From contig CP154954.1 of NCBI GenBank assembly GCA_039621445.1, positions 48,339,847 to 48,403,846 of the forward strand: 64,000 nucleotides of DNA. Reading direction: 5' to 3'. How positions within the stretch are numbered: the stretch's first letter is position 1; every line of letters starts with the position of its first letter. This DNA is from Euglena gracilis (lineage: Eukaryota). The position numbers and the translations under genes are program-made. Below are positions 10,630 through 64,000 of the stretch, one piece after another. The notes below the pieces were generated by a model. The model was not told the origin of the DNA and searched no databases. It saw only the letters and a program-made list of their open reading frames with translations.

Positions 10630-10673
<44 letters not shown>

Positions 10674-20261: not shown

Positions 20262-22276
20262 TGCGATGTGCAGTAATCCCCTCGGTCGACACATTGGACA
20301 CAGCAGACGCACCGCTGACACGACGGTGGTGTAAAGCAAGGTAGGTGTCATTCGAAGGGCAAAAAATAAACAGCAGCAAGGGTGTCACTGAGCCATTTAA
20401 CCATTTAAAGCCAACCCAGGGTACCGCTTAACGTCGGGCGGCTGGTCGAAATTGACCAATGGGGTTGACCAGATCCTAGGCTGAAAGAGGTTGTTGGCTA
20501 GCCCCCCCCCCGTTCCCCTTTGTCTGGAGCTCAAACAGCGTAACTCGCACTAATTTTCCTTTGTCAGTGTGCGCATTTGTGCAAATGGACAGTTTTGACA
20601 TTTTTCACAAAAATGACAATACCTGACTCACAAAACCCAAACATTTAATCAGGATGTGATGTGGTGCCCCAGGACGTAGAGATGAAAGCAGGGATCAGAT
20701 AGGTGTCGCCACAGCTTACGGGGTGCACAATACCCAGCCAGAAACTTCACGTGTGTGCAACTTCACGGCCATGCCATTTAGGCGATTCGGCATTGCTACA
20801 GTCTGAAAATCCTTAAGTGGGCTGAAATTGCTGTGTTTAGGGAGACATATGTGATGCAGCACCCTGACATGGTTTATTTGACCTTCTCAGACATACCACA
20901 CAACATCAGCACAACACCTGCACACGCTGCTCTTCTCCTAACTTTTACTCGCAGTTCTCAGTTTAACTTTACTCGCAGTTCTCACTGTGGTTTTTATGTA
21001 TTTTTGGTAAAATATTCACTTTGGGGAGGTCAGCCCTGGGGGTTTCACAGCTCGGCGACGGGTTTTGGAGAGTCAAGGGCACCATAAATGTACACTGAAA
21101 CCAGGTGCCACCGCTGTGAAAATGTGAACATCAGCAAATGGAGGGATGGCATGTTGCAAAGCAGCTCAAACACACCGGACCCTACCGTGCCACTGCTGGA
21201 CAAGGCCATAGCATTGCTTACTGACCGCCGGGCGGAAGGGGGGGGTCACTTTTCACTTCCAAAAAACCAGTCAGTCACTTGGCAAAAACCAGTCACCCAC
21301 TTCCTAACCTCCCGGGGGGGGGGGTCACCATGGCAACAATGGTGTGACCCCCTAAAACAAAAAATGCGCACACCGACAGAAAAATACGTTAGCACAATGC
21401 TTGATTGGAGCAATACCCTGTACGGAAATTCAAGCAGGGGGAAAAAATGTCAAATGTGGATAAATTTGCTTCGAAAGAAGCCCAATTTCCGTAAGATTTT
21501 GGAGGTTTAAACACTCTTTTGTGCAATTGTGCAAACAACTTTTTGTTTTTGTTGCGCGATTGCGCAAGTGACACAGTTAATTTATCCTCACTGGGACCAT
21601 TTCCTGCGTGATTCTTTGGCTTATTCGAAATGGATTCCTGATAAGATGCCATCTGCCATGTTCCCCTGAAACTAAACAGAGAAAAACGGAACCTCCAAAG
21701 CGAAAGTGCGGGAATGTGAAATGTGGAAATAAACATAAATGAGCTGAGAATGGAAAAATTGACAACGAATAGCACTTCCTGCGATGTGGAAGTTTTCATT
21801 TTGACCAAACTTGACAGAAAGCCATTGCATGTGCACTTTTGTATATTTTGAAAAAAGTGCCAGATTTGGGTTGGGTTGGGCTGGGCGGGGGGGGGGGGCG
21901 ACCGTCAGCTGCACGGGACCAGTGCACTGGCCGCGGGGCCCCTCTCCGCGGGGAGGGCATGGCTCTGGGCGTGGGACTGGACAACCGCCTCCTTACTGAT
22001 CCACCCACATCCCATGAAAAGGCAGCCGCGGGCGACAGGCTGCGAGACGGGAGGGGGATGGGGACAGGCGAGGGGGTTGGATGGATGGGGGGAGGGGTTC
22101 GAGGCTTGGGGGGGGGGGGCGTTGCTGCGTCGCGAGAAAGCCGCCACCCTAAGCAGACCAAAGCAGGCATGCACCCCCTGGGGGGGCACAAAGCTCACAC
22201 AACAAACGCGCGCGGCTCTCGGGGACAGCAGCGATACGCGCCGGGAACGGCTCGACCCGGCTCCTTTTTGCCACCC

Positions 22277-29230: not shown

Positions 29231-29746
29231 TCACATGCCATCAATCACCTGCAGATACACTTTGACTTCATTGTAAGACGTCACCCTGTGGAATAACAAA
29301 TTTTGTGACACACCTCATGGCAGGGATTGTATGAAAAACTAAACCCCGACTGCCTTTTGCAGGCACATTCCTAATTGGCTGTGTGTTTGAGTATGTTACA
29401 TACCCCTTTTTCCCCTACTAAAATGATGTTGGGGAGTGGGAGCGACTGGTGACGCCTCTCCTGAGCACGTCAGTCAGGGGTCAGGGGGTGCTGTATCAGC
29501 AATGGGGAGGGGGGGGGGGGGGGGGGAAGCTCACAGAACCTGGCAGTCAATATCACAACCCCCATTAAGTGACACGTGGGGGTAGCCTGAAGAGAGGCAA
29601 GGCTCATGAAAATACGGACGCGCGCATGAACGTGCGCATGACATGAGCACCACAGGTGCAAAGGCGCGCGCACCGGTTCAAACGTTCAGATGTGCATGGG
29701 TGAGTAGTGGCACTTGCGCACACAGAACACAGATCACACATATCCT

Positions 29747-29787
<41 letters not shown>

Positions 29788-32700
29788 CCGCAATGCATAA
29801 CACACACACACACACACACACCGCAGTCTCCTCAAAGCCATAGCCAGGAAATCTACGGCTGAACTTGGAGGGACTTCCTTGGTTTCCACTTGGGGAAGGC
29901 GGCCTTTGGGAGATAACACAACAAATGGATTGCACAGGTGCTTTAAACTTTACTAGATCCATGGTAGGGTGTGCACAGGTATGCGCGTATGCGTCAGCCT
30001 CGTTTGCATAATTCCACTAATCAAACAAAAAAAATTGCAATCATTTGGATGATGCATGATTAATTGCATCCACGTGATGATGGGTTATGGGTGATGCTGA
30101 AGGTGAAAGGGTCAGGGTTGACGGTTGGGCATGCACACACGCACGGTCACACACAGACAAACAGGGGTCCTTGCTGCCAAAAAAAAACCTGTTCCATGAG
30201 AAAATTATCAGGGGGAAAAATGGTTAAAAAAAACTCGAAATTTTTGTGGTTAAAACAGGTCCAAAAATCTGGTGTCAGGGGTCATCAGACCTTCGCCCAT
30301 CCGCCTGAAACATCAAAATGTGTTTTCTAGTCATTCAATGTTTGTCCATGTTTGAGCTCTGGACCGGACCACCCTTGGGCCTAAGGGTGGTGGGCGGTCC
30401 TTGAACAAAACAAATGCTGTCCCTTGCCAATAAGTATCCCCAGTGGGTCTTTGCCGTTGCAGCCCATCCCCCCCCCCCCCGCACACCCGGAGGACACTTC
30501 AGACTCCGCGTCCACGAACCGCAAGTGCTTGGCGGGCATGCCCCGAGCCAGAGGGCCCTTCGGCGTGACGCAGGGGAGCCGGAATGCGGAGCCCCGCCGC
30601 TCCTCGATGAGGCTGCCGACGTCCCCGAACAGCGGGCCGCTGCCCCCTCATCGGGTTCGGCGCTGGCATGGCCATCGGGGTTTCATTGGCGTCCTCAATT
30701 CAGAAAAACGAAAACGCGACAAACATAAAATCGTAACAAGGAAATAGGCAGCTGGGGGGCAAAGAAGCAACTCTCGGATTTGTGGTGGTGATGAATGCAT
30801 TGGCGTTGGGGGAACCCACCCAAAAATGGAGAACAAAAAATGAAAAGTGCTGTCCGCAGAAAAATAATAACAACACAAAAACAACATCTGAGCCCTTTTA
30901 GATGATACATATTCAGGTGTTAAGTTTTCCTTATTTGCTCCTGGCCGTTGCTCTTGTAGACATACTCTCGCCAAGCCCACCTGTGAGGATTCCTAAATGG
31001 CGGGGTAGAACGGAGCAGCAATCATATCCTTCCTTTGCAGCACTACAGAGCGATAATATATATGACATATTTAGAGAGGTTAGGCCACTTTCAATGAATC
31101 GGTCTTTGGCGGATGGTGATTGAAAAACAGGCTGTCGGAAAGAGAGAAAGAAAAATACAGCACTTGCAGCTGCGGATGGAGCAGATGAGCTTCTGCGAAA
31201 GAAATCTAATTCGCACCACTTGCATTTGTATTGTTGATATTATTTGACGACCACTTCTGCTGTGGCATCATTCGTTTGGCAAACGTCTTTGAGCGTTATT
31301 AATTCTGATGTTGTTTGTCGGAGAAACATGACATAAATTCTGTGCAGCTTCGAAAGGCATTTGGAATGAGAGGGCAGCAGTAGTTCAAACGTCTTGCGGT
31401 CCAACTTGGCAACGTGCATCTGTTGAGAGGGGCGGCGGTGGCAACGGTGCTTTTAATCTAAAAGCGTTGCGGCCATACCATTGCTCTGCGACCCCCGGGG
31501 GGGAGGGGAGGGTCACTTTCCACTCTGAAAAAACCAGTCAGTCACTTTACCCCCTGGGGGGGATCGGCCACTCTTGAATGATGAGGAGGAGGCAATGAAA
31601 ATTTACCAAAAAGTCTCAAAAATCAAAAAAAATCGGGCGCCTTCGGCGCCAGGCAAGCCACTTTTTCATTTTCGGGCCCACCCCCCAGGGGGGGGGTTCT
31701 TGGCCAGAAAACCAGTCAGTCACTCTGAAAAAACCAGTCAGTAACCCCCCCGGGGGTGGGGTGGGATAGGTGTTAAGCAATGGTATGGTTGTGGCACATG
31801 ACCACGCCATTTCATGATGGTCGCATTCTTTGCTGCTGCCTGGTTTAAACTTTTGACTTTTGAGTACACCAATCAATCGAAATCGAAGCCAGGATTGGGC
31901 AATAATCTGCGATACCTGCCGATGTGTGAGCCCCCCCTGAGCAGCACTAAGGCTTCTTTTCTGTTTATGGCCTGCGCTGACTTCGCCTCTGGCCCAGTTT
32001 GCTGTGTAGTGAGTGGCCACATACCCCTTACACCAGTGCTCTTGTGTTGCTCCGCCTGGCCGGATGAGCAAGTCTGGTGTATTTCCAGTGTGTGTGTGAG
32101 CCCCCCCCCCCCCCGGAACAGTCATCTGACAGGTTGGCGAATAACGGCGGCCTTGACAACTTTCCATCATGACAGGTTGGCAGTTACTGGGGACCCTGAC
32201 AATTTCCAGGGAGGTTCTCCTTTTGGCTTTTGGGAGGGGACAAAAATTTTGCGGTGCCCCCTACTGACTTTCATAGATTTGGATATAATCAAATACCAAT
32301 AATATATCAATTTATTTGTCAACCCCCGAAATTTTCCCGCAATGCGCAATTATTACCCAAATTGGATCACTTCTCATAAAAACTGACAGGTTCAACCTTT
32401 CAAGCCAATTACATTCGACCTGACAGGCTTGGGGACACCAGGAACATGACAACTTCCAATCATAACTTGTTGGCTGGTTCCGGGGACCTTGAAATTTCCT
32501 GGGTGGAACCCTGACAGGTTCGTACAGTCATGACAGTTTCAGGGGGCGGGGGGGGGGGACATTTATAATAGACCTCTCCATGCCTGGCACCAAAGATAAT
32601 GCTTCTGCGTGTGGAGATGACAATTTCATGCAGATCAATTAAAGCCCTTTACAAGAGCACCTGCGTGGATTTTCTCATCGAGTTTATTGATTGCATGAAC

Positions 32701-38700: not shown

Positions 38701-41700
38701 ATATTCCGTCGAAAACGGCCATATTGCCTTCGGCGCCGGGGGGGGTGTGCCATAGCACCCAGCCCGAAGCTGGATTCCTCCAGGGGGGGGGGTCGAAATG
38801 CCCTACCTCCCTGTCTGCTCCCAGCACCTGGAATCTGTCCACCGGCAAGTCGCCAAGAACCTGGGACCCTGGCAGTGGACCACAACGGCACCTCACACTG
38901 TTTGGGACAAATACGCACTCCGTTAACTTTCCCGGGTTGGGATCCCGTTTGTGAATTGCGGGTAACGTCCCACCCCTCCGTGTATGGAATGCCTCAAGTC
39001 AACTTTTTGAGAGGGAAGCCGACGGCAGCCACACCTTCCTCAAAGATCAGCGTCCCGGCCTCGAAGGTCACCTCCTGCAGGGCGTCGATCATTAGGTGCA
39101 GCTCCAGGCTGTCCATTTCGCTGAAGAGGTAATTGTCCCGAAGCGCCTGGGCCACAACGCAGAGCGGCGACGATAGGAGGCCGTGGGAAGCAGGGAGCAG
39201 GGCTGATGCCCGGGGAACGTTGGCAGTGCCTCACCACCGTGAGGAAGGACGCGGTGGGTCGGCCCGTTCCCGATGATTCGGAAAAAGGGTGCAACAAAAA
39301 CGGGCGATCAACGCCGGAAAAAATGGTTCGGATAAACGGCAGTGAAAAAGAAAAAGTGCACCAATAATGTTAATATTTTTGATAATGATTTTGCATTTGA
39401 TAAAGACACTGGTGCCTGCTCAGGGGATTTCACTCCGTTAAATGCCGAAGAAATGTTTCCTTCAGTCGGAATATCTCCGGCCGTGGCCGGCCACGGCTGG
39501 CCACAGATCCAGCCGCGGATGTTGAACCTGAACACTGAAAAGCACTGCGACAACAGTGAGTTCTCAAGAATGTGGCACTTGTGACTGCAATGGGTGTCCA
39601 TATTCGTGGTAACTTGCAGCACCCCAGTAACCCCAAAAAGCCGCCAGCGCCTCGCTCAGGACCCCACGTTTGTGACCCAGGTGCAGGTGGGCGGCTCTTT
39701 CGGTTAACTGAGGCCAATGCAACGACGTTGCCCGGCAATGGTTCAATTTGTGTTCATGCGGATTTAGCCGTAACCCTTCCTTCACAAAAGAAACTCATCA
39801 GAGCGTACACGGTTCAGGGGTTGTCTGAAACCACGGATGATGGCGATGAAACAATGGCCAGCTGACTGCGGCTGGCCGTGCCCGAAGGCGATGCAAACAT
39901 TCCACCCAGTGAAAACAGATGACAAGGTGGTTGGGTCGCCAGCTGCCACCAACTCGGATGCAACATCCCACAGCCATCTCCCCAACCCAGGCACGCACTA
40001 CACCCGCCTCCCTGGCAGTCTCGAAAAGCTTTAAACATTAAAAAAAATTAAATTAAACAAACAAAACAGAAGATATATCCAAAAAAAAGAGGCGCCACCC
40101 CACTGAGAGCTCAGACAAAAAGACCGGAATGATAACACCATTGGCTCATTCTGGGGAGAGAGTGAGGTCAATGGAGGAAATTTTCCCAGGAGAATTTTCG
40201 AACCACTTTGTTGGCTTCAGAGAAAAAAATTTGTCCTCTGTCCTCCCACTTCTGTCCTCCTTCCCTGCATATGATTTAGTACTGGTCCGTTCCCCTCTTT
40301 CAAAAAAAAACAAGAGGAGATAAAAAGATGGAATTTGTTACCTCCCCCCCCCCTATGTCCAACGACCGGTAACCTCTGTCCTCTGACCGGGGGGGGGGGG
40401 GGCAGTCGTTGGACCCACCCTATGTGACCAAAAAGGTGTCCTCTGACCGGGGAGGTGGTCGTTGGACACGGGGTCGGGGAAAAAAAGTTTGCCGAAACCC
40501 CCCCAAGCAGGTCAAAATTTTCTTTCCGGCGCTTCGCGCCTCCATTTCCAGCCCTGTCAACAAATATTTCCTCAAATAGCACCCAAAACGTACCTTCACG
40601 CCGCGGGATTTCACAAAAAAAAACAAAGATACCCAGTCGACAGTCCCTGCATTCTGGTGTCCTCTGACATTGGACATAGGGGGGTCGTTGGACATGGGGG
40701 GGGGTAAAGACAGACAATCCCCCTGGTAGACAATCAAACCCCCGGACCCCCGGCCTCCGGGAAGCGGGGGGGGCATACGTGCAGGCACCTATGGTCACTT
40801 CCCATTTTGGTGCCCTGGTCGGCGCTGGTCGGCCCTGGTCGGCCCTGGTCGGCCCTGGTCGGCAAATAGTCGGCCATAGGTGGGGGTATCCTTCACAGAA
40901 AAAAATGTGAAGGGATGCAATGATTTTCTGAATTGTCTCGCCAAGATCAAAAGGAAGTGCCCCATAAGGCCTCCATTGGCTCCCCAAAAGCAACCAAAAT
41001 GACCTAAAAATGGCTTGAAATAACCAAAAATTACCCCAAAACGCCAACAAAATCCACAAAAGATTGTGAAAAATAACCCAAAATTACCAAAAGGGAGCAA
41101 AATGACATATGCCAAAAGCCCATTTCCAAATCCGGTGGCGCCCCACTGGCTGTGGTTGATATGGGTGTAAAACCCAACAAAGTAGTTAGAAATACCCTTT
41201 TGCTCAAAAGCATCCAGAATCACCCAGCATCGCCCAGCAACACCCTGCATCGCCCAGCATCGCCCAGCATCGGAACCCCACCTCTGGTCTCCAAAAATCC
41301 AGCATCACCCAGCATCGCCCAGCATCGCCCTGCATCGCCCAGCATCATCAAGAGGTGCTTGTTCCAGAGGGAAAGCTGCCGAATTCCTTCATCCATTCCC
41401 CTTCGGTCGGCCAACCACATGCAAGTCGGCCCTAGTCGGCCCTGGTCGGCCCTGGTCGGCCCTGGTCGGCCCTGGTCGGCCCCGGTCGGCCGTAGGTGCC
41501 TGCATACGTGGATGAGAGCGAAAGTGTCGTTGGCGGACTTGGGGAAGGCGGGCAGCTTGAGAGAAAGCGGGGGGCGGAGGCTGGCGATCTGCGCGATGAC
41601 CTCCGTGCGGCGGGCGACGGGGCGCGGCTCGAAGGCGGTGGCGGCCTCCTCGTCGGAGTCGGTGGAGGCCTCCCCGTCCTGAAAGGCAGACCGAGACCGT

Positions 41701-42511: not shown

Positions 42512-42789
42512 CATAGATTCACTTAGTGGGGGAGGACATTTCTCCCAGGCCCAAAACCCACCCACCCACTTTTTTCAAAAACCCACCCACACACAAACCC
42601 CCAGGGGAGGGGTCAGACACCCACCCACGCACCCACCCAAAATCATGCCAAAACCACCAAAAACACTGAAAAAATTATCTGGCTGGGCAAAAACCTGACC
42701 CATAACGCACCCGGGGGGGTGAGGCGCACTCTTGAAAACGCACCCACCCCCCGCGGGGAGGGGTCGCACAGGTGTTAAGTGAATATACG
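42512..42789. mobile_element. Intergenic copy of the CATGG-terminated MITE family
   Basis: CATAGATTCACTTA ... TAAGTGAATATACG with an ACCCACCCACCC-rich core, as in 14373-14629 and 51621-51900. Confidence 0.7.
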
Positions 42790-42844: not shown

Positions 42845-43201
42845 CCTCCCCCCCCTTGTCCAATGACCGCTAAATATCGCTACTGACCGGGGGGGTCGTT
42901 AGATAAGACCGGGGTCAAAAAAAATTTTTCTCCTGCTTCGCTTCAAGGCGAAAAAAAGTTTCCTTTGCCTGACATGGCCACAACTCTCCGCTTCATGATG
43001 AAAAAAGGGAGAAACATGCAGCAATCAACAAGGCACCAACACATGGGAGAACTTGTTGATCAGGTTCAAAATCAGCCATGAAAGTTATTTTAAAAAAAAA
43101 GGCTGGAGGTAAGAACGTGAATCACCTGGAAAAAGATCGCTACTGACCAGGGGAGTGGTCGTTGGACAAGGCCGGTCGTTGGACAATGCGGGGGGGGGGG
43201 G
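42845..43201. mobile_element. TA-type MITE, diverged copy 2
   Basis: CCTCCCCCCCCTTGTCCAATGACC ... GGTCGTTGGACAATGCGGGGG..G|TA. Confidence 0.65.
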
Positions 43202-44199
43202 TATGACTTATGACATTTGAAAATGATTTTTGGGGGTTTTATGCTTGTCGATGTGCAGAGACAGCCGGTGGGATGGGGGGTCAGGAACCAGAGTAAATTT
43301 TAAGATATGACGCCAAATTTGCCCTGTACACTTTCTTCGAGACAGGTCAGTACACACAAAAACACTGGAACTTATGAGAATAGGTTAGCCCTGATGTGTG
43401 CGAAGGTGTGCTCAGAAGAATGTGCTTTTTCCAAGGACTGGATATGATGTGTGTTATTTGTTGGTGCAATGCCCATCAGGTTTTCATTTTTTTGCGGTTT
43501 GTGGCCCGGGGGGGGGGGGGCTATCCTGGCCCCGATCCCCCAGGAGATGGGTGTTGGGCCGAAAGGAGGGACATTTTTTCTCTGCAGCGCCAAAAACTGT
43601 ATTCGCTGAAATGTGCCCGCCCTCTGGCGACGGTAATGTCCATTGCAAAGGCCTTCCCATGCCGCTCCGTCCAAGTCCCCCTCCAGGGTCCATAAGACAG
43701 GAGATGAGGCAGGGGTCCAGTGCAAATGGAGCTGTGCACAGTGGAGATGGGAGGGGAGGGCGATTGTTGTGGGGCTGGCTATGTTGTAGTGTTCTATGCA
43801 AAGAGAGCCGGGGGGGGGGGGGGGAGTGCGAATCTGGGGGCTGTAAACTGTGGTCAGTCAGGGGAACGCACAGAAGGTCAGCTGGAAGGGATGGAGGGCC
43901 CGGTCACAGGGGGTAGAAATGCCCCGCTCCACCGACGTCGCGAACCACCACATTGGGTGGGGGCCACTCCACGGGCAAGCCAGCACTTCCCATGCTGCGC
44001 CTGCCGATTTTCCCGACGCCGCGGTTGCTTGGCACATCGTGGTAGGGATCCGATTTTCCCGGATTTGTGCGCAACCGTGCCTTTCCCACCATCACCCCCC
44101 CCAAACCCAATGAACACCAAGGTGACAATCTAGACGGTCCGAACACCCCCTGTCATTGGGCACGGGCGTTCATTGGGCATGGGGGGGGGGGTACCATCA

Positions 44200-46614
44200 C
44201 CCCCATCGCCAGGAGGGGCCCCAGCGGGGTTGATCTGGCGGATGATGCTCCACAGGGTGTGGGTGCCGAGGGCGATGTCGAACGTCTCGTCGCTGGTGGG
44301 CAGCGACCCGCCGTCCCAGCACAGGTCCAGCTGCTGCAGCGTCGGCCCAGGCCGGCCCCAGGCTGGCCAGGGGGCGATGAGGGGGGAATCCTCCTTAAAG
44401 CGCCGGGCCAACCCTTTTTACCCCAAAAATGACCCAAAACCGCCATGGGCACTGTCTGGGCAACGTTTTGTCAGACTGCCCAAAATATCGGCACAAAGTG
44501 ACGGAAAACTGAATCTTTGAGGCAGTCCCCCCCCCCCCGGCCGGAAACCACCCAGCGGGGGGAAGGAGGCCTTGCGAAAGGGGCTTCAGACGGTCGAAAC
44601 CACCCCACCCTCCTTCGTGCCCAACCCTCTGGGGGGATGCAAGGTCCTTGTGGCCGAGTTGTGCAGAAAGTGGTCTTTTCCAAAGTGCATCCAACAGGAA
44701 CGTTGTTCTGCGTTTGTGGGGCAATGAGTCCAGCACTGTGCGCGGTACATTTAAGAACAAAATGCCTGCCCAGCCTCTTCCCCACGACCACGTCGTCTGC
44801 TGTTCTTTAACACCTCGCCAAACCGTTCGTTTGGCGGTTCCTTTCCTCGGAAAGAAGCCCGTTTCCCACTCAAAACCGAGGCAAAAGATTCGCCGCAGCC
44901 CCGGCCCCGGGGGCCGGCCCGGCGGGAGAGAGCCCACGATGTTGAGGAGCTCGGAGGTGGTGCTGAGGATGGGCCCGATGACGAGGTGCTTGATGTGCGT
45001 GGCCTCCAGCGCCACCGCCTGGCACACCGCGGAGTCTGCGTCCTTCAGCCCCCGCCAGGCGGTGGCGAGGCGGCACCGCAGCCACACACAAAAGGCGGCC
45101 CAAACCTGACCCAAGTTGCTCAGTGGGTCTTCCCAAGAATTACTGGGGGGGTGGGGGTCCCTGCTGGTCTGAGTACGCAGCCACAACAACAAGCAGTCAC
45201 GTGGAACATGATGACTTACGTGGACATGAACACAACACATCGCACACACGGACACCACACCACACCACACCACACCACACCACACCACACCACACCACAC
45301 CACACCACACCACACCACACCACACCACACCACACCACACCACACCACACCACACCACACCACACCACACCACACCACACCACACCACACCACACCACAC
45401 CACACCACATACAACACAAACAAACACAACACAAACATGCACGCACGCGCACACAACATGCACACACTCAACACACACTCATCACACAACTAGAGGCACC
45501 GTCACACTGCTGCTCATCAGATATCCTCATCAGATAGGGGTGAAACGCGGTCTGGGGCTGATGGACACAGCCTGACCCAAGCACTGCCAGTTTGTGTAGA
45601 TTTGCCGGCAGAGGGACACCTTGCTTGAATATTTTGTGCAGTTAGCCAAATAAAATGGTTCACCAGCCTACTGGATAGAAGCCTCAATCAGCACACCATA
45701 AACCGAAGCCAACGTCATGGCAAAACATCACACACAAATGAAATATTTTGAGAAGAAAAAAAAAGAAAAAAAGAAGCTGCAGAAAAGCGCAACGGCTCCC
45801 AGGGCGCACAGAAAATGCAGTGGCTCTCAGGGCGGAAACTTGTGCTGGAGGTCCTTGAGCACGGCACTGGTCAGGGTGTGGATCGGCCCGTGGCTGGCGT
45901 GCTTCCACACGTGGAGGTGCAGCCACTCCAGCGAGGGGTAGGGGTCGGTGGGGGGCACCACGGAGAAGAGGGTGTCGTCCACCTCAGGACGCAGGCCGGA
46001 CCTGCAGGTCGCCGGCCAGCATGCAGCCACGCACATGCATGCGCACATGCCCGCGTGACAGAGAAACCCACATGTGTGCACGCACGCACACACCCACCCA
46101 CCCACACAAACCGCAAACACACACAAATAACAACACACACCAAACGCAACAGAGATTCGAGTGCACAAAGAAAATGAGCGCGTTCACACGACGTGGTTGC
46201 AGACATGTTGGGTCACGGCCTGGAAAGTGCCTCGGCCAAGGAAGTACAGCTCCAGGCGGCGCAGGCCAAAACAAGTGCCAAGCAGGGTGTGGACGAACTT
46301 GTTGGTCACCTCCCCGAAGAGGACACACGCCTGCAGCCGCGAGAAGCGAGCGATGTTGGAAGCCAGGATGGTTGCTCCCAGCGGGCGACCCAAAGAGGTG
46401 TTGCGAACCAACTCTCACAAACACCTTTCACCACGGGCAAACACAACCAAACACACCCAACACATCACACACAGAGAGAGAAGGACAAAGATGCACACAC
46501 AGGCACACGCACACATGGACACGTGCACACAGATGAGCAATACGCATAAGCACCACATCCATCTCATAAACAACGCACGTGCACAGAACACAGGCACACA
46601 CACAGACACACACA

Positions 46615-46654
<40 letters not shown>

Positions 46655-49600
46655 CAAAGAGAGATACAGACAGACAGAGAGAGAAAGAAGACACACATGG
46701 GCGCGCATGCACACTGTGGTTGGACAGGTCGCTGGACAGGGAGGGGAAAGGATACTGCAGCAGGAGGAATGGTTCTTGTAGGCTGCGGTAGCTGTCCCAG
46801 TGCTCCTCCCAGCCCACACTCTCGATGCTGATGCTTTCCAGCGACGGTGCCGGAAGGCCAACTCGGTAGCTTTTGATGGTGACATGAGCAGCATGAGCAA
46901 TGTGAGCATGCTGGACATATGAAAATAACATCAGATCCACTCGAATCCACTGGACCCAATTTTGAAAATATTTTTTGCTTGCATCACATTGAATCAACGG
47001 AAAAAGGTTTGAAGACAACCTTACGTAGGGCTGTTCGGGAAGGTCTGGGGGTCTGGACCCACTCCACCAAGGCAATTCACAACGGAAATTCCTTTGGTTC
47101 CGACCAAGGGCTTTTTTAAGACTGGGGGGGGAGGGCCCCCGCCCACCCACCCACCAGGGTCCCCTGAAAATGGCCAAAAATCGCGAAAAATGCTAAGAAA
47201 TAGCACCTTTCTCAAAAATTTTCGGTGCCAAAAAGTATATCCCACACCCCCCCCCCTACCCCCCTGGGGGGACCCCCCCGGGGGGTGGGGGGGCTCGGCC
47301 GGACCCATCCACACTACCCCCCTCCCCCCGGAGGTCCAAGGCTTAAAAAAAAAAAACCCTGGTTCCAACATACAAAAAAAAGCTGTCGGATTCAGCAGTA
47401 ATTGGCACAGGCAGGAAAAAAATGACAGTGACTTGCTGAGGGGGAAAAAAGCGAAGGCACCAAGGACACACATGCTTCCCCCACCCCAGGGGAGGGGGAA
47501 GTTGGCCCCAATAAATTCGAAAATAAATTTTCGTGAATCCGTAAGTCCGTAAATTTTCCACTTTTGGGAGATCAGTCCATTCCCCTGAGAGGTTGGCCTC
47601 GGGCCTGTCCTCGCCAACCCAGCCTGACAGGGGGTTGGCCTGCCCCTCTGTACTCGCCAACTTGGCTGAAGCCAACTTCCACCCTTCCCTGGGTGGGGGG
47701 GGGGGTACAGAGAGCCTTAACACCCCAGAGACAGCCTCCCGGGCGGCAGGCGGGTCAGGAGCACGTCCAGCGCCGCGTCAGGCAGGCGGGGCTCGGAGTG
47801 CTGGAGGAACGCGGCGGTGTACGGCCGCAGCCGCAGGCACTGCAGCCGGGGGACGCTGTGGGCGATCCGCTCGCAGTCCGCCCGGGAGAAGGCGCACGGC
47901 GCGGAGATCTCCAGCCGCTCCAGCTGGGCCCATGGCCGGGGTGATAATATAGTTTGTGATACATATGATAATAATTCATGATACGCGTCTCTCTCTCTGT
48001 GTGTAATAAAATGCTATGTGCACACACACACATAGTATATTGTTATTGTAGTATATAGTATATTACACATAGTATATTGTATATTGTTATTAATATATAA
48101 TATATATTAAATTGTAACACCATATATGGTATGTAGAGCGTGGTATAATGCATACAGACAAACACTCTGTGGATATGCACAAATGCGCAGACAGATCCTC
48201 TGCAGGAAGGTGTGTTCTGTCAAGCTTGGCTTTTACCCTCCCCCCCCTATGTCCAATGACCGGTAACCTCTGTCCTCTGACCGGGGGGGTGGTCGTTGGA
48301 CATAGGGTAGTGACCAAAAAGGTGTCCTCTGACCGGGGGGGTGGTCGTTGGACATGGGGTCAAAAGAAAATTGGTGGGTACCCGGGTCCCTACCCACCCA
48401 AAAAATGCCCAAATTTTCCCTTCCGGCGCATCGCGCCGAAAATCTTGGGCAATTTTGACAAATTTTTGTCCAAAAAGTGTCAAAAATGGCATTTTGGCCA
48501 AAATTTGGGCAAAATTTTTCGTCCCGGCACTTCACGCCGGGACCAAAAATTTGGTCAAACCTCCGAAAAGGTGTCCTCTGACCGGGGGGGTGGTCATTGG
48601 ACATAGGGGGGTCGTTGGACATAGGGGGGGGGTATGAAGTTTTTGTATTTGCATCCGCTGTGCTTTGCATGTGAGAAGAAGAAGTTTGCCTCCTCATCGA
48701 CCTCACCCCAGAATTGATGGTCCACAGACAGGCCATGTTTGGGGTGACTGGTGGATGATGTGCAATATGTCGCGGAACAGAGGGAGGCGCTCCGATCTTT
48801 GGCAAACATCAGCAAAACCAAGCAGGTCTGCTGACATTATCTTGAGCAGTTTTATACGGCCCAAACCAGGGGTCACCGGCACTGCCACGGGAGGGAAAAG
48901 CAGCCGGCAACCTCCTGGGCACAACACTCCCCAACACACCCCCAAGACAGCACGCCGGAGCAGACAGGGGAGCCTCGGCGGGAGCACCGCACCGGAGGGG
49001 ATGGCGTGGGGGTGCTCGGAGACGCACAGCTCCCGCAGCTGCGGGAAGGCGCAGCACGCGAACCGCGACCGCGCGGCGGGGGCGACGCAGCCGACGTTTT
49101 CGATGTGCAGCACCCGGAGGGCGGGGGCGTCCCGGCCCTGTCTCTCCAAGGTCCATGGCCCGAGGACCCCCACACAAATATGGGATTATGAGGAGGGGGC
49201 AGGTGACCTCTCAACTGAAATGGACTTCGGGCGTTCGATGGCGCCAGGATGCTTCAGTCGCTCATCTCCCGGCAGAAAGGGAGCGTCTAGGGAGGGCAGC
49301 TGAGAAACTTGAGTTGAAATCTGTGGCATGCAAAAGGGTTGGTCAGGAATGCTCCCCGCTCATCGGCATGGAAACCAGCAGCTGGAAGGCTGTTCGATTG
49401 GTGACACATCACAAGGAGGGCAGTGTGGGGGGGGACACCTGAGGTTGACCCCCAGGCGACTCCAGTTCCCTTCTCATGTCGCGGAAATGGGAGGGGGGGG
49501 GCCGAGGGTCGGGGCGGGCGGCGTGCGAGAGGGGCGGCAGCGCCTCCGGCTTGGCGGGCACCGGCGGCCGCGTGAAGCGCACGCCGCCGAGGCGCAGCTC

Positions 49601-52457
49601 CGCCAGGCGGGGGCAGCCCGCCAGGAGGGGGCCGAGCAGCGCGGCGTCCAGCGGCACCTCGCAGCCCCCGCCGCTCGGCGCCGGGTCCGGCCGGTCCGTC
49701 TTCCACAGCCGCTCGGGGGCGGGGCGTCCCGGGGTCCGCCGTCCTCCCATGACACGCAGGAGGGCAGGGGGGGGGGGCTGATCGCACCCGACACATCAAA
49801 TCTCCAGCAGCAGCAAACAGAGGGGTCTCTAAAGGCCCCGTACAACCCCGTTAACCGTGGTTTTTGATGAGGCGGCCTTTCGCATAAACGACACAAACTT
49901 TCCCCAAGAGTAAACTAACAGGGGGAAAAGGACTGTTTGGGGGTGGTGGTGGAGAGTGCCAAGGGGGGACGTGCTTTTGGGGGGGTCTGTTTTTGGACTC
50001 TGGAAATTTGCAGCCAAAAAAAGTTAGCAGCATTCTTCCCTATCATTTGAAAAAAGGCAATATTTGACCGTGTAAAATATGTATAAAAAAAGCAAAAAAA
50101 AAACGATCACGTTTGGGGCAAATACACGTCAATTTTCCCCAAAAAAAATCCCAATGGGGATTTAAATAACTTCAGCAATTTTGATTTGATTTGGGACACC
50201 ACAGCCCATTTGGACGAACGAAGACGCCAAACGTCAGCCAGGTGCTGTGGAGGAGAGCTCCGGGCGAGGTGCTGGCAGTACTTCACCACCTCACGAAGGA
50301 CGCTGTAGTGCAGGGACCCCGTGAACTCGATGACCCGCAGGCCGGGGGACTTCAACAGCAGCAGCCCCAGCACGCCGGCCTGCTTCTCCTCCCAGCGGTC
50401 CCCGGCGATGGACCCCGCCAGCGGGGGGCGGAGCGAGCACAGGGGAAAGTGGCGGGTCCGCACACGAGTCAAACGGTGTGCGAATGCGGGGGTGGGCGGC
50501 AAATGCGCACACCCCGACTCATCCCCAGGACTGGCTTCATTTGGCTTGGGCACCAACCCCCACCCTCGTTAAACTGCGACCAGACAGGTCGGCAAGTGGC
50601 TCCGACACTTTCCTGGGCGGGGGGACCCCCCGTTCGCCAGGGACGCCGGGTTCCCCGAGAATGGGGGTGCCCTGGAACAGAGTGCGGGGTGGTGGCCTGG
50701 CCCCCCCGCTGGCCAGCTTCGTCACCGCCATCACCTGCTGGGCGAGGCCGACGAGGAACACCATCGTGCGGGGCGTGGGCGACCGGAACCGCAGGTCGGT
50801 GGGAGGTGGGCCCCGTTTGGGCTCCGGGGGGCATCCCTACCTCCCCCTCCCCCATCCAGAACACTGACTCCTGACAGCAGATACTGCGTTCCTCGCCCCA
50901 TTGCCCCATACCGCGCGTGTTGTCAATTGTCATGGAAGATCATTGGTTTTTTTGACTTTGGTTGGCCGTCCCTGACAGCTCCCTGGGCATGCCCCAGGGG
51001 AGGGGTTTTTGGTTTTGTGGCCAAACCTGGGAAACTGTCCGCGCCGTCCGACCTGCCACGGTTTCCAAAAACCATTCACTCACCTTTTCCGGAAAACCAG
51101 CCAGTCGCTAGCCCCCGGAGGTGTACACTCTGGAATCCAAGGGGAAATTGACGACAGGTTTAAAGAAACTGGCCGAGAAAAAATTCCAAAGGCGGGCCAT
51201 TTTGGTGGTTTATCCAACCCCTGCACCCACAGGGCGGGGGTGGGTTACCATATTTGGGGATTGCTTATATTTGGGTGTGGGGTGGGCAAAAAATCGGCCA
51301 AAAGGCTGCCTGCATTTGTGGATAGCTTGTTTTAAAGGTTACTTATATATGCGGGGGGGGGGGTGTTGCACACCAATTTGGCCTGTTCCCCTTTAATGTT
51401 GGCACGCCATATGCCACTCCAAACAACCAGTGAGTTACCCCCTCCCCCCCGGGGGGGGAGGTCAGCCAGAGACTAAGTGATTGGCTTAGTGTTACGGTCG
51501 GGGAGTGGGGGCGCCTCGGCAAGGGCAGCGGTGCAGTGGAGGAGGCGGTGCGTCGCTCGGCGCCACTCGGAGGACAGGAGGCACAGCACCTGCACAAAAG
51601 GCAGCCCCAAGTACCTGAACCATGGATTCACTGAAGGAGCTCCATGGGGGGAGGGCAATTCCCCCTGGGCCAAAACCTACCCACCCACTTGTGTGAAACA
51701 CACCCACGACGACCCCCCCCCACGCCACCCATCCAGAAACCCACCCAGAATTAGCTGAACCCCTCAAAAAAAACTGGAGATCCATTGCGAACCCCCCCAG
51801 GGTCCAACACCGCCACTGCGCCAACCCACCCACCTGCCCGCCCACCCACTTTCGAAAAACCCCCAGGGGAGGGGCCACACCCGCAGTCAATGAATCCATA
51901 CCCTGAACACCAGCTCCAGCAAGAAGTCTGGCGGAACAGGCCGCGGCACGGGGGAAAGGTTTCCGAGAAAGGGTGGGCGAGCACAAAGGCCCACATGTGA
52001 CTGCAGGTGTCATGAGCATGGCGGGGCAGGGGATGGGCAACCCAGATGACTGGAACAAAGGGGAAGAATGAAGTGTCTCTCAAAGGGACCCCCAGAGTTT
52101 TGCAAGGCACAGTTTTTGCCGGGGCGGCCCCATGCGTGAAAAACAAAAAAAACCGTAATATTTTCTGAACATTTTTGGGGGGCATTTGGACTTGCCAAGG
52201 GTGCAGTCCTTTAGAGTTTTAGGTGGAAAGCAAGACCTTGCACAACACAGCACAGCCTGCGGAGCTGCGAACACAACACAGAGGACTGTCCTGTGCTCTC
52301 CCCCCAAACACACACACACACACACACACACAATCCCTTTGAAGGCAGCCACCAAGGACAGAGGCCAGGGCAGAGGCTGGGGCCCGGGCGGGGGGTCGAG
52401 GCTGCAGTGGGGCGAAGCGGTGGCCTCGCGCCGCGCCGCCTTGCGATGCGGCTTCAT
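44200..52457 (-). CDS. F-box / leucine-rich-repeat protein (FBXL-like)
   Basis: F-box-like PDFLLELVFR-YLGLPFVQVLCLLSSEWRRAT followed by LRR-type units: SPGLRVIEF, CQHLERLW, CPRLAELRL, ALRVLHI, FPQLRELCV, SPQLERLEI, VPRLQCLRL, LPSLESISI, CFGLRRLEL, YPSLEWLHL, LPTLQQLDL. All resolved junctions are nonconventional. First junction and 3' end unresolved. Confidence 0.82.
45253..45408. repeat. (CACAC)n microsatellite
   Basis: Directly visible. Confidence 0.95.
47105..47361. mobile_element. 257-bp hAT-like MITE nested in nonconventional intron 46846-47744
   Basis: Ends CAAGGGCTTTTTTAAG / CTTAAAA..AACCCTG; TSD GTTCCGAC / GTTCCAAC; same family as 61231-61513. Confidence 0.82.
48236..48632. mobile_element. 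TA-flanked MITE, copy 3, nested in nonconventional intron 47926-48740
   Basis: TA|CCCTCCCCCCCCTATGTCCAATGACC ... GGTCGTTGGACATAGGGGGGGGG|TA. Confidence 0.85.
51621..51900. mobile_element. 280-bp CATGG-family MITE forming nonconventional intron 51616-51903 inside the F-box motif
   Basis: TIRs CATGGATTCACTGA / TCAATGAATCCATA; TSD ACCTGAAC / CCCTGAAC (7 of 8). N3/N5 removal gives VFR-YLG, whereas the nearby GT/AG pair is out of frame. Confidence 0.85.
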
Positions 52458-53370
52458 CGGCGCACGGCGCCGCACCCCGCTGGGCAGCGGGGCGGCCCCA
52501 GGCAGGGAGGGGAGTCACCTGGAACGGCCGGCCGGAGAATGCAAAAAAAAGTAAAATGTATATAAACAAATATATAATAAAATATATAAATATACATATA
52601 TATACAGATACAAATATACAATACCGCAGGGACAGGCGGAGTTGCGATACGGGGGTCGACACGTGCTCATCGCCCGCTATTGCGTCAACAACACCAGAGT
52701 CGGTGCAATGGCTGACTCTGGTCATTGTACAGACTCTGTGCAATGACCGGAGTATGACACAGAGTGCTGCACAATACTCCGGTCACATTGCACATCGGTC
52801 AAAAAAAGATTCCAAAAAACGCTGCCTCTGCCGGTGCTACTGAACAAAAAGAGTCTCCTGGTCTTGGGAATGTGAGGCCCCAAAATTGTCGCAGCCCATT
52901 GGCCGATGGGTCCTTGTCCAGACGAAGTGCTTCTGTCCTGGGGGGTGGTTTGAAACCGCCATTTCCCATCGGCAATTTCACATTCCCGCAGGACCAATGT
53001 GTAATAACCCCAAAGAATTTTATTTTTCGCCATTTTTGACCCTTTTTTAGAAAATTTCTCAATGCTTTGCATCCAACATTTTTTTCGGTCCAAAGCCGGG
53101 CTGGACCGAACTACATTTCAGGAAACCATGAGGGGGAGGGGGGGCAGGGTCTGCAGCCTGGTTGAGAGGTGCTGGCTGGAAAAAATGTGCTGACTGCCCC
53201 CCCCCCCCTGACCTGGGGGTAAGGTCCCCTCCGGCTTAAGAAAACCCTGCCCACAAAAGCAGACAAACAAAAGAGAGAAAATACTAAAATGTAAGGGAGC
53301 TGTTACCAAAAGCGAATCACCCATCAGCATTCAGTAGGACTGCTGGTAGTAGTAGTAGTAGTGGTAGTGT

Positions 53371-53734: not shown

Positions 53735-64000
<10,266 letters not shown>

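What the first reader, a model, noticed from the sequence alone, without database searches (positions are those of the whole stretch)
45986..51903. F-box/LRR gene in which every resolved intron (at least nine) is nonconventional
Introns 51616-51903, 50775-51503, 50414-50714, 49715-50265, 49123-49519, 47926-48740, 46846-47744, 46374-46737 and 45986-46225 each have a terminal stem with N3/N5 spacing (one N3/N6) and give in-frame LRR joins such as CQHL-ERLW, SP-QLERLEI and LP-SLESISI. The WD40 and PKA-R-like genes are mostly GT-AG. Inference: this gene may have arrived intronless (retrocopy or gene transfer) and gained its introns by transposition.
Basis: partly seen in the sequence, partly recalled or inferred. 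Interest (0 to 1): 0.72.

Follow-up and report, generated by a model that had tools for sequence, protein, structure and literature searches.

The report
Euglena gene with only nonconventional introns
This is an ordinary Euglena gracilis F-box/leucine-rich-repeat gene whose 15 introns all belong to the stem-defined "nonconventional" class that is already known to be the majority intron type in this organism.

Summary
The window is Euglena gracilis nuclear DNA. One exon is 100% identical to transcriptome protein EG_transcript_6946.

That 569-aa protein maps on the minus strand from 52457 to 43904 in 16 exons and 15 introns. The spliced product is 565 of 569 identical.

eight of nine are exact. 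One (50775-51503) is misplaced; the true intron is 50798-51520. Six more were missed.
- **Borders:** none of the 68 protein-compatible boundary placements is GT-AG, GC-AG or AT-AC.
- **Terminal stems:** 11 of 15 introns have a stem of at least 4 bp at N3/N5-6 before a purine, against 9.5% at random positions.
- **Comparator:** the neighbouring WD40 gene has 6 GT-AG introns of 11. No PKA-R-like gene was located.

Nonconventional introns make up 57% of E. gracilis introns (PMC11170887). Genes with only such introns, such as rbcS, are already described (PMC6221363).

The gene has a Eutreptiella orthologue. At least five intron positions recur in 62-68%-identical homologues. A recent intronless arrival is therefore not supported, and the published transposon-origin idea stays untested here.

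Verdict: real, a new member of a known kind, of low interest.

The parts
43904..52457 (-). Coding span of the F-box/LRR gene (ATG at 52457-52455, stop at 43906-43904); 16 exons, 15 introns, 1707 nt of CDS
   Evidence: tblastn and junction enumeration of P0001. The in-silico spliced product is 565 of 569 identical to EG_transcript_6946 and stops at the same place.
52390..52457 (-). Exon 1 (coding part), aa 1-22
51933..52389 (-).
   Evidence: Nine protein-consistent placements, none GT/GC-AG (one is GG-AG). 5-nt direct repeat CCGCC. Stem CGGGCC/GGCCTG of 6 bp, but at N3/N4 rather than N3/N5.
51904..51932 (-). Exon 2, F-box start (PPDFLLELVF)
51616..51903 (-). Intron 2, 288 nt, nonconventional
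   Evidence: 14-bp stem (2 G-U) at N3/N5, G at exon start, 7-nt direct repeat GTTCAGG. Core is TAT/ATG, not CDG/CH'G.
51521..51615 (-). Exon 3
50798..51520 (-).
   Evidence: The transcript and orthologues read TAAL|DLRFRSPTP. 4-bp stem GAGG/CCTC at N3/N5, G at exon start.
50715..50797 (-). Exon 4
50414..50714 (-). Intron 4, 301 nt, nonconventional, meets the published code
   Evidence: N3-CAG...CTG-N5|G, 10-bp stem.
50266..50413 (-). Exon 5
49715..50265 (-). Intron 5, 551 nt, nonconventional, meets the code
   Evidence: N3-CGG...CCG-N5|G; only the 3-bp core pairs.
49520..49714 (-). Exon 6 (65 aa), the query that identified the transcript
   Evidence: 100% identical to P0001, E = 5.3e-34.
49123..49519 (-). 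Intron 6, 397 nt, nonconventional
   Evidence: 7 placements, none conventional. 6-nt direct repeat CCGCCC. 2+4 bp with one defect at N3/N5. An intron at this position also occurs in homologue fragment P0016.
48980..49122 (-). Exon 7
48779..48979 (-).
   Evidence: GCC-GAGGC...GCCTC-CCTCT|g, 5-bp stem at N3/N5. P0016 reads straight across this position.
48741..48778 (-). Exon 8 (38 nt)
47926..48740 (-). Intron 8, 815 nt, nonconventional
   Evidence: AAA-CATGGCC...GGCCATG-GGCCC|a, 7-bp stem at N3/N5. Holds three copies of an interspersed repeat. Position shared with P0016.
47745..47925 (-). Exon 9
46846..47744 (-). Intron 9, 899 nt, nonconventional, meets the code
   Evidence: N3-CGG...CCG-N5|G, 10-bp stem (3 G-U). 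Position shared with P0017, which is the P0002 homologue.
46738..46845 (-). Exon 10
46374..46737 (-). Intron 10, 364 nt, nonconventional, meets the code; begins GT but ends GC
   Evidence: GTC-CAGCG...CGCTG-GGAGC|a. Position shared with P0017.
46226..46373 (-). Exon 11
45986..46225 (-). Intron 11, 240 nt, nonconventional, meets the code with N6
   Evidence: TTC-CAGGCCG...CGGCCTG-CGTCCT|g, 7-bp stem at N3/N6. Position shared with P0020. P0018 (the P0038 homologue) breaks 6 codons later.
45834..45985 (-).
45604..45833 (-).
   Evidence: 3 placements, none conventional. Weak stem (1+3 bp with a T-T mismatch) at N3/N5, A at exon start.
45578..45603 (-). Exon 13 (26 nt)
45051..45577 (-).
   Evidence: GGT-CAGGC...GCCTG-GCGGG|g. 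Holds a (CCACA)n array.
44924..45050 (-). Exon 14
44344..44923 (-).
   Evidence: GCC-GGGCCGGCC...GGCCGGCCT-GGGCC|g, 11-bp stem at N3/N5.
44226..44343 (-). Exon 15
43955..44225 (-).
   Evidence: GCT-GGGGCC...GGCCCC-CACCC|a, 6-bp stem at N3/N5.
43904..43954 (-). Exon 16 (coding part) with the stop codon

Best explanation
This is the Euglena gracilis nuclear gene for an F-box/leucine-rich-repeat protein (transcript EG_transcript_6946). The protein is probably a substrate receptor of an SCF ubiquitin ligase.

Its pre-mRNA carries 15 introns, all of the euglenid nonconventional class. Each lacks GT/GC-AG. Its two ends instead pair into a short helix. The helix places the 5' cut 3 nt upstream of its 5' arm. 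The 3' cut falls 5 nt (once 6 nt) downstream of its 3' arm, directly before a purine. This matches the experimentally defined code 5'-N3CDG-/-CH'GN5-6|R. By analogy with studied Euglena genes, such introns are removed by a still unknown, probably spliceosome-independent machinery, after conventional splicing, and are released as circles.

The all-nonconventional make-up is most simply explained as follows. The gene belongs to a euglenid-restricted branch of F-box/LRR proteins that had no ancient spliceosomal introns to inherit. It then collected nonconventional introns, the majority class in this genome, over a long time rather than after a recent arrival. At least five of the positions are older than the split from 62-68%-identical homologues.

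Shown here: the organism, the exon-intron map, the absence of canonical borders, the terminal helices and their register, the fold class, and the existence of orthologues.

Inferred: the excision chemistry, circular products, SCF function, and why conventional introns are absent.
For: Identity.
- Exon 49520-49714 is 100% identical to eukprot EG_transcript_6946. It was the only hit at E <= 0.01 among 962 candidates.
- The spliced product is 565 of 569 identical with the same stop.

Intron class.
- 0 of 68 protein-consistent placements are GT/GC-AG.
- Stems of at least 4 bp at N3/N5-6 before a purine occur in 11 of 15 introns, against 9.5% of 20,000 random placements. Stems of at least 5 bp occur in 10 of 15 against 4.25%.
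- In a deliberately generous control, the 5' and 3' ends of different introns were paired in all registers (210 pairs). It gave 39.5% at >=4 bp, 19.5% at >=5 bp and 3.8% at >=7 bp, against 73%, 67% and 40% observed.
- End-to-end folding energy (10 nt + U7 + 10 nt) is <= -2.5 kcal/mol in 15 of 15 introns (random 37.7%) and <= -7 in 10 of 15 (random 6.3%).
- All 15 chosen placements have a purine at the exon start. The 5' consensus is cc|GCC-C(A/G)G.
- The strict code is met by 6 of 15. Nomura et al. find it in 61.2% of E. agilis nonconventional introns (PMC12501133, section 11 read).

Protein class.
- The family profile hits SKP2 (E = 3.7e-7), FBXL2, FBXL5 and FBXL3.
- Pfam F-box-like matches 5 of 13 family members.
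- The AlphaFold2 model has pLDDT 82.1 and pTM 0.81, with alternating strand-helix repeats.
- Of the 40 Foldseek rows listed, the first 17 (ranks 1-23) are all F-box/LRR proteins except rank 22, a ribonuclease inhibitor. The best are FBXL2-SKP1 (1.9e-11), COI1, D3/MAX2 and TIR1.

Age.
- There is a Eutreptiella gymnastica orthologue at 63% identity, plus two unnamed full-length ones at 61-69%.
- Only 19 hits at E <= 1e-3 were found in 1.84 billion representatives.
- Homologue fragments P0016, P0017 and P0020 break off exactly at the I6, I8, I9, I10 and I11 positions.

Background.
- 16,151 of 28,337 E. gracilis introns (57%) are nonconventional (PMC11170887, section 4 read).
- Genes with exclusively nonconventional introns, such as rbcS, are described (PMC6221363, passage read).
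Against: - Junctions rest on a protein, not on cDNA nucleotides, so cut sites within the direct repeats are not fixed.
- Four introns fit the register poorly. I1 has 6 bp, but at N3/N4. I5 has only a 3-bp core. I6 and I12 have interrupted stems.
- Nine of 15 introns do not meet the CDG/CH'G core. The cores seen are GAG/CTC twice, GGG/CCC, GGG/CCT, CAT/ATG and TAT/ATG, with no intact core pair in I1, I6 and I12.
- P0001 itself gives no Pfam F-box hit at E <= 1. Its only hit is LRR_At5g56370 at E = 0.0016, below the cut-off.
- Under independence with a 57% share, 15 of 15 has probability 2.2e-4. Some cause beyond chance is therefore likely, but it is not identified.
- The fragments that show shared intron positions could be unspliced RNA or genomic DNA. 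They prove that an intron is present at a position, not what type it is, and they do not prove that an intron is absent elsewhere.
Confidence: 0.72

Rival explanations
1. The gene entered the genome intronless, as a retrocopy or a transferred gene. It then acquired all its introns by insertion of MITE-like mobile elements that the nonconventional machinery removes.
For: - No conventional intron among 15, against 6 of 11 in the WD40 neighbour (Fisher p = 0.002).
- Inverted termini in register.
- TSD-like direct repeats with a mean of 2.8 nt against 0.71 at random, and 3 nt or longer in 8 of 15 against 6.3%.
- 13 of 15 junctions lie at YY|R sites and 8 of 15 at CC|R sites, of which there are 94 in 1707 nt.
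- A MITE-like origin is a published hypothesis (PMC3935182 and PMC11282704, passages read).
Against: - Orthologue in Eutreptiella and two further full-length homologues, so any arrival predates the divergence of Eutreptiella and Euglena.
- No donor-like hits: 19 hits in all among 1.84 billion representatives.
- Five intron positions are shared with 62-68%-identical homologues.
- No intron end matches any other sequence in the window.
- The conventional introns of the WD40 gene also show 3-4-nt repeats (AGG, CAGG), so junction repeats alone do not indicate transposition.
- No parent gene is known.
Confidence: 0.2
2. Chance. Intron types are scattered at random among genes. With 57% nonconventional, a few long genes will be all-nonconventional without any cause.
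For: - The baseline is 57% in E. gracilis (PMC11170887) and 71.8% in E. agilis (PMC12501133).
- 0.718^15 = 0.007. Among tens of thousands of genes, such cases must exist.
Against: - 0.57^15 = 2.2e-4 per gene.
- In the WD40 gene the six GT-AG introns are consecutive (introns 5-10). This suggests the types are clustered rather than independent.
- The literature already lists genes of pure type: rbcS is all nonconventional and tubG all conventional (PMC6221363).
Confidence: 0.1
3. Conversion. Some or all of these introns began as conventional spliceosomal introns. They lost their GT-AG borders by mutation after acquiring end-pairing, passing through an 'intermediate' stage.
For: - This is the first hypothesis of Milanowski et al. 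(PMC3935182, abstract passage read).
- I10 begins with GT. I1, I2 and I8 each have a placement that ends in AG.
- Several positions are old.
Against: - No intron keeps both canonical ends.
- The same paper reports that conventional positions are conserved while nonconventional positions are lineage-specific, which argues for separate origins.
- Fifteen independent conversions in one gene would be needed, while the neighbour kept six conventional introns.
Confidence: 0.08

Closest known systems
Nonconventional introns of euglenid nuclear genes (rbcS, lhcp2, gapC, tubA/tubB; code of Nomura et al. 2025, PMC12501133)
   Same: - No GT/GC-AG borders.
- Terminal helix with a 3-nt 5' spacer and a 5-6-nt 3' spacer.
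- Purine at the start of the downstream exon.
- Pyrimidine|purine junctions and short direct repeats that make the borders slidable.
- Lengths of 201-899 nt.
- rbcS is likewise a gene with only such introns (PMC6221363).
   Different: - Only 6 of 15 carry the CDG/CH'G core, against 61.2% genome-wide in E. agilis. Several use G..G/C..C or CAT/ATG cores in the same register.
- Fifteen in one gene is a larger all-nonconventional set than any gene named in the passages I read.
- Excision of these particular introns has not been studied.
F-box/LRR proteins of SCF ubiquitin ligases (SKP2, FBXL2, TIR1, COI1, D3/MAX2)
   Same: - N-terminal helical F-box-like segment followed by an LRR solenoid.
- Profile and fold matches.
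- Atlas look-alikes are F-box clusters scoring 0.97.
   Different: - 12-17% identity in the fold matches, with TM-scores of only 0.32-0.49 normalised to the query.
- No Pfam F-box hit for this protein itself.
- SKP1 binding and the substrate are unknown.
- The family is narrow, with 19 detectable homologues.
Transposon-derived introns ('introners', MITE-derived introns of Micromonas, dinoflagellates, Fritillaria; review PMC11282704)
   Same: Inverted terminal repeats, TSD-like repeats at the junctions, and non-canonical borders.
   Different: No family of near-identical copies was seen for any of these introns within the window. Genome-wide copy number could not be examined.

Membership tests
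Euglenid nonconventional introns | Absence of canonical GT/GC-AG (and AT-AC) borders | tested here: met
   0 of 68 protein-consistent placements over 15 introns are canonical.
Euglenid nonconventional introns | [quoted passage not shown] | tested here: met
   At least 4 bp in 11 of 15 introns against 9.5% at random. I1, I5, I6 and I12 are weak or off register. End-to-end folding energy is <= -2.5 kcal/mol in 15 of 15.
Euglenid nonconventional introns | CDG / CH'G core trinucleotides (Nomura code) | tested here: inconclusive
   Met by 6 of 15: I4, I5, I9, I10, I11 and I13. The code itself covers only 61.2% of E. agilis nonconventional introns (PMC12501133).
Euglenid nonconventional introns | Purine as the first base of the downstream exon | tested here: met
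   15 of 15 at the chosen placement, 11 G and 4 A.
Euglenid nonconventional introns | Removed from the mature mRNA | tested here: met
   The transcriptome protein is colinear with the 16 exons, 565 of 569 identical. This is protein-level evidence only.
Euglenid nonconventional introns | Excised as full-length circles by a non-spliceosomal route, after conventional splicing | not testable with these tools
   Known from other genes (passages in PMC11282704 and PMC6221363). No RNA data were available for this locus.
F-box/LRR (FBXL-type) proteins | F-box motif near the N-terminus | tested here: inconclusive
   No Pfam F-box hit for P0001 at E <= 1. F-box-like matches 5 of 13 family members, best E = 2e-4. 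Family profile positions 51-122 align to SKP2 residues that include its F-box, E = 3.7e-7.
F-box/LRR (FBXL-type) proteins | C-terminal leucine-rich-repeat solenoid | tested here: met
   The AlphaFold2 model (pLDDT 82.1) shows about 18 strand-helix units. The best Foldseek hits are F-box/LRR proteins at E = 1e-11 to 1e-8.
F-box/LRR (FBXL-type) proteins | Binding to SKP1 in an SCF complex | not tested
   No complex prediction or experiment was run.
Transposon-derived introns (MITE-like / introners) | Many near-identical copies sharing termini | tested here: not met
   blastn of all 15 introns against the 64-kb window matched only microsatellites and internal repeats, never an intron terminus. 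The test covers the window only, not the genome.
Transposon-derived introns (MITE-like / introners) | Terminal inverted repeats and target-site-duplication-like direct repeats | tested here: met
   Stems as above. Direct repeats have a mean of 2.8 nt against 0.71 at random, and 8 of 15 are 3 nt or longer. The conventional WD40 introns also show AGG/CAGG repeats.
Retrocopy or horizontally transferred gene | Absent from related lineages, or closest relatives in a donor lineage | tested here: not met
   Orthologue in Eutreptiella gymnastica at 63% identity. No other group of hits was found among 1.84 billion representatives.

The most novel reading that the evidence does not exclude
Nonconventional introns in this gene may be old and placed according to structure.

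Three of them (I9, I12, I14) split the same proline codon, in the same phase, of the LRR motif P-x-L-x-x-h-x-h. A fourth (I8) lies 2 nt away and can slide onto the same spot. At least five positions recur in 62-68%-identical homologues.

If this holds, either nonconventional introns were copied along with LRR units, or their insertion or retention is targeted to a defined site. All-nonconventional genes would then mark gene families born inside euglenids. That would give a way to date the spread of this intron class.
Probability: 0.2. Interest if true: 0.55.

Novelty: new member of a known kind. Interest (0 to 1): 0.25.

Why it matters
Mostly it does not change the picture. Nonconventional introns are the majority class in Euglena, and genes that hold only such introns have been described since the rbcS work.

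The locus is still useful in three small ways.

1. **A natural reporter.** This transcript's maturation depends fifteen times over on the unknown nonconventional machinery. It could serve as a read-out in knock-downs of candidate factors.
2. **Exceptions to the published code.** Nine of its introns are evidently spliced although they lack the CDG/CH'G core (GAG/CTC, GGG/CCC, CAT/ATG and others in the same register). They are ready-made test cases for extending the code.
3. **Age of the introns.** The intron positions shared with homologues, and their recurrence at one codon of the LRR unit, hint that some nonconventional introns are older than the tubulin studies suggested.

There is also a practical point. 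Public protein sets contain mis-predicted ORFs that run from these exons into the introns. This shows how such introns mislead gene finders.

Tried and rejected
Splicing the nine given introns keeps one frame open. But there is no start codon, and a false stop arises by reading into intron 12. The transcript-based model replaces it.
Rejected. It would give ...TAALAEAPPLPRTMVF..., whereas the transcript and all aligned homologues have ...LDLRF.S.TP....
- **PKA-R-like gene.** Pfam scans of 596 stop-to-stop ORFs of 45 aa or more outside the gene (150 + 150 + 114 + 102 + 80; low-complexity ORFs were dropped first) found only WD40-type matches at 14596-17922. No cNMP-binding or RIIa match appeared. 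Two regex scans for recalled motifs found nothing convincing.
- **Naming the unnamed homologues.** The organisms behind P0002-P0020 and P0038 stay unknown.
- **Prokaryotic relatives.** The search for related loci on genome contigs with alignment A1 failed because it had no conserved stretch to search with. It was not repeated. Absence of bacterial relatives therefore rests only.
- **Whole-intron repeat families.** None was seen in the window.
- **Structured RNAs in the introns.** No Rfam family at gathering score and no tRNA in the window.
- **Intron type in homologues.** I considered inferring it from the read-through codon before each exon. I dropped the argument because a boundary inside the next codon could still end in AG.
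- **Not reachable.** The SI appendix PDF of PMC12501133 cannot be read here. The supplementary docx of PMC11170887 and the spreadsheets of PMC12501133 were listed but not opened. Per-gene intron tables there, if any, could bear on how common all-nonconventional genes are.

Full report
**What the window is.** The finding lies on the minus strand. I translated the largest proposed exon (49520-49714) and searched it against the large protein collection, allowing longer proteins. It returned a single hit among 962 candidates. The hit is a 569-aa protein named eukprot:EG_transcript_6946, 100% identical over all 65 residues, E = 5.3e-34. The window is therefore nuclear DNA of Euglena gracilis. This is the organism in which nonconventional introns were first described.

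**Gene model.** tblastn of this protein (P0001) against the window gave a colinear chain of 16 exon matches from 52457 down to 43907. For every pair of neighbouring exons I enumerated all donor and acceptor positions that reproduce the protein across the join. The spliced coding sequence is 1707 nt. Its translation is 565 of 569 identical to P0001 and ends at the same stop. The four differences are H17R, R33G, R51H and A251V, which look like allele or strain differences.

Splicing them does keep one frame open.
- Eight are correct.
- The ninth, 50775-51503, is not. The transcript and all aligned homologues read TAAL|DLRFRSPTP, which puts the intron at 50798-51520.
It missed four downstream ones as well (45604-45833, 45051-45577, 44344-44923, 43955-44225).
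- Its model ended at a false stop produced by reading into intron 12.

**Are they nonconventional?** The enumeration gave 68 protein-consistent placements for the 15 introns. None is GT-AG, GC-AG or AT-AC.
- I10 starts with GT but ends GC.
- I1, I2 and I8 each have a placement that ends in AG but does not start with GT or GC.

I then measured the longest uninterrupted helix, G-U allowed. It had to start 3 nt inside the 5' end and 5 or 6 nt inside the 3' end, and the downstream exon had to start with a purine.
- For I1 to I15 the values are 2, 14, 4, 10, 3, 2, 5, 7, 10, 5, 7, 2, 5, 11 and 6 bp.
- At least 4 bp is reached by 11 of 15 introns. In 20,000 random placements in the same strand, with the same freedom to slide, it is reached by 9.5% (tail 5e-9).
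- At least 5 bp is reached by 10 of 15 against 4.25%.
- A deliberately generous control paired the 5' end of one intron with the 3' end of another in every register (210 pairs). It gave 39.5%, 19.5% and 3.8% for >=4, >=5 and >=7 bp, against 73%, 67% and 40% observed.
- The end-to-end folding energy used by Gao et al. (10 nt + U7 + 10 nt) is <= -2.5 kcal/mol in 15 of 15 introns (random 37.7%). It is <= -7 in 10 of 15 (random 6.3%).
- Four introns fit poorly. I1 has a 6-bp helix at N3/N4, I5 pairs only through its 3-bp core, and I6 and I12 have interrupted helices.

**Fit to the published code.** Nomura et al. defined 5'-N3CDG-/-CH'GN5-6|R by knock-in assays and found it in 61.2% of E. agilis nonconventional introns (PMC12501133; abstract and sections 5 and 11 read).
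- Here 6 of 15 meet it strictly: I4, I5, I9, I10, I11 and I13.
- Six others keep the register but use other cores. These are GAG/CTC (I3, I7), GGG/CCC (I15), GGG/CCT (I14), CAT/ATG (I8) and TAT/ATG (I2). I1, I6 and I12 have no intact core pair in register.
- All 15 chosen placements are followed by a purine. The 5' consensus is cc|GCC-C(A/G)G, close to the CCAGG consensus of Gao et al. (PMC11170887, section 10 read).
- Junctions carry direct repeats with a mean of 2.8 nt against 0.71 at random. Eight of 15 are 3 nt or longer against 6.3% at random. This is the 'slidable intron' phenomenon reported for 84.4% of E. agilis introns.

**Comparators and baseline.** Pfam scans of 596 ORFs outside the gene found WD40-type matches only, at 14596-17922.
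- One WD40 ORF retrieved eukprot:EG_transcript_2331. It maps to 22015-14274 on the minus strand in 12 exons.
- Of its 11 introns, six (numbers 5-10) have a GT-AG placement and five (1-4 and 11) do not. 'Mostly GT-AG' is thus only just true.
- No PKA-R-like gene was located.
- The contrast of 0 of 15 against 6 of 11 gives Fisher p = 0.002.
- Genome-wide, 16,151 of 28,337 E. gracilis introns (57%) are nonconventional (PMC11170887, section 4 read), and 71.8% in E. agilis. The older draft-genome figure of 8.5% came from 271 introns (PMC6366073, passage read).
- Under independence, 15 of 15 has probability 2.2e-4. This is uncommon for one gene but not remarkable across a genome.
- Gumińska et al. 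state plainly that some euglenid genes hold exclusively nonconventional introns (rbcS), some solely conventional ones (tubG), and some both (PMC6221363, passage read).

**What the protein is.**
- Pfam gives P0001 only a sub-threshold LRR match.
- A scan of 1.84 billion representatives found 19 relatives at E <= 1e-3.
- A profile of 13 of them (A1) matches SKP2 (E = 3.7e-7), FBXL2, FBXL5 and FBXL3.
- Five of the 13 match Pfam F-box-like.
- The AlphaFold2 model (pLDDT 82.1, pTM 0.81) has two N-terminal helices followed by about 18 strand-helix units.
- Its best PDB matches are FBXL2-SKP1, COI1, D3/MAX2 and TIR1 (E = 1e-11 to 1e-9, TM 0.35-0.48).
- Language-model look-alikes are F-box clusters scoring 0.97.
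- 'F-box/LRR' is therefore supported, with the F-box resting on profile and fold evidence rather than on a direct Pfam hit.

**Age of the gene and of its introns.** Full-length homologues are P0002 (68-69% identity), P0038 (61-62%) and a Eutreptiella gymnastica protein (63%). Several short representatives are ORFs that run from an exon into unrelated sequence.
- P0014 and P0015 are E. gracilis itself, reading into the window's introns at 94-98% identity.
- P0017 has an exon part identical to P0002 and is bounded at the I9 and I10 positions.
- P0020 (91% to P0002) begins at the I11 position.
- P0016 (62% to P0001) runs from the I6 position to the I8 position without a break at I7.
- P0018 (98% to P0038) crosses the I11 position and breaks six codons later.
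- P0005 (94% to P0038) breaks four codons after I6.

Introns therefore exist at five of the 15 positions in homologues of 62-68% identity. Two are displaced in the P0038 lineage. These fragments may be unspliced RNA, so they do not prove that an intron is absent. They also do not reveal the intron type.

**Transposition.** blastn of all 15 introns against the window matched only three kinds of sequence: microsatellites, a (CCACA)n array, and internal interspersed repeats in I2, I8 and I9. It never matched an intron end. The inverted ends and junction repeats agree with the MITE-like hypothesis of Milanowski et al. (PMC3935182; review PMC11282704; passages read). But the conventional WD40 introns also have AGG/CAGG repeats. 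The locus neither supports nor refutes transposition beyond what is already published.

**A pattern seen on the way.**
- Eight of 15 junctions lie at CC|R, of which there are 94 sites in 1707 nt.
- Eight of 15 introns fall 0-5 residues before a predicted LRR strand. That zone covers 108 of 569 residues (p = 0.003, post hoc).
- I9, I12 and I14 split the proline codon of P-x-L-x-x-h-x-h in the same phase. I8 lies 2 nt further on and can slide onto that spot.
- Five other such motifs in the LRR region carry no intron, and four of those five have CCC as the proline codon.
- Either site preference or copying of introns with LRR units could explain this. I cannot tell which.

**Mechanism and verdict.** The intron ends pair. 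The helix sets the cuts 3 nt before its 5' arm and 5-6 nt after its 3' arm, ahead of a purine. The exons are then joined. The register is shown here. The chemistry, the circular product and the order relative to conventional splicing are taken from other genes (passages in PMC11282704 and PMC6221363).

The kind of thing is already known.

Noticed in passing
window 14274-22015, minus strand: WD40-repeat gene (eukprot EG_transcript_2331, 458 aa) in 12 exons. Its six GT-AG introns are consecutive (introns 5-10). Introns 1-4 and 11 are nonconventional, so the two intron types are clustered along the gene rather than mixed.
   Followed up: yes
It would replace DLRFRSPT by AEAPPL. It could be a decoy or an alternative nonconventional splice pair nested around the real intron 3.
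   Followed up: no
window 46846/47744, 45604/45833, 44344/44923 and 47926/48740 (junctions of I9, I12, I14, I8): Three introns split the same proline codon, in the same phase, of the LRR motif P-x-L-x-x-h-x-h. A fourth lies 2 nt away. Five other copies of the motif in the LRR region have no intron, and four of those five use CCC for the proline.
   Followed up: partly
window 48236-48630 (inside intron 8); also 40338-40475, 42845-42899, 43130-43206, 63032-63119: An interspersed repeat of about 40-130 nt occurs three times inside intron 8 and at four other places in the window, at 78-97% identity. Parts of intron 9 (about 47105-47351) resemble 61231-61507 at 77-82%. Part of intron 2 (about 51647-51707) resembles 42528-42590 at 81%.
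   Followed up: partly
window 45231-45490 (intron 13) and 18921-19151 (intron 3 of the WD40 gene): Long (CCACA)n-type pentanucleotide arrays sit in introns of both genes. (CA)n and (GA)n runs lie in introns 1 and 10 and at 10617-10749, 29715-29821, 53951-54079 and 56844-57024.
   Followed up: no
window 49493-49657 and 50131-50512, minus strand: Public protein sets contain short 'proteins' (P0014, P0015) that are ORFs running from exons of this gene into its nonconventional introns. These are gene-prediction artefacts caused by the unusual intron borders.
   Followed up: yes
window about 52519-52550, minus strand, upstream of the ATG at 52457: A pyrimidine-rich run ending in TTCCAG lies about 61 nt upstream of the start codon. 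It may be the acceptor for the spliced leader. No transcript nucleotide sequence was available to check.
   Followed up: no
whole window: No Rfam family at gathering score and no tRNA gene in 64 kb.
   Followed up: partly
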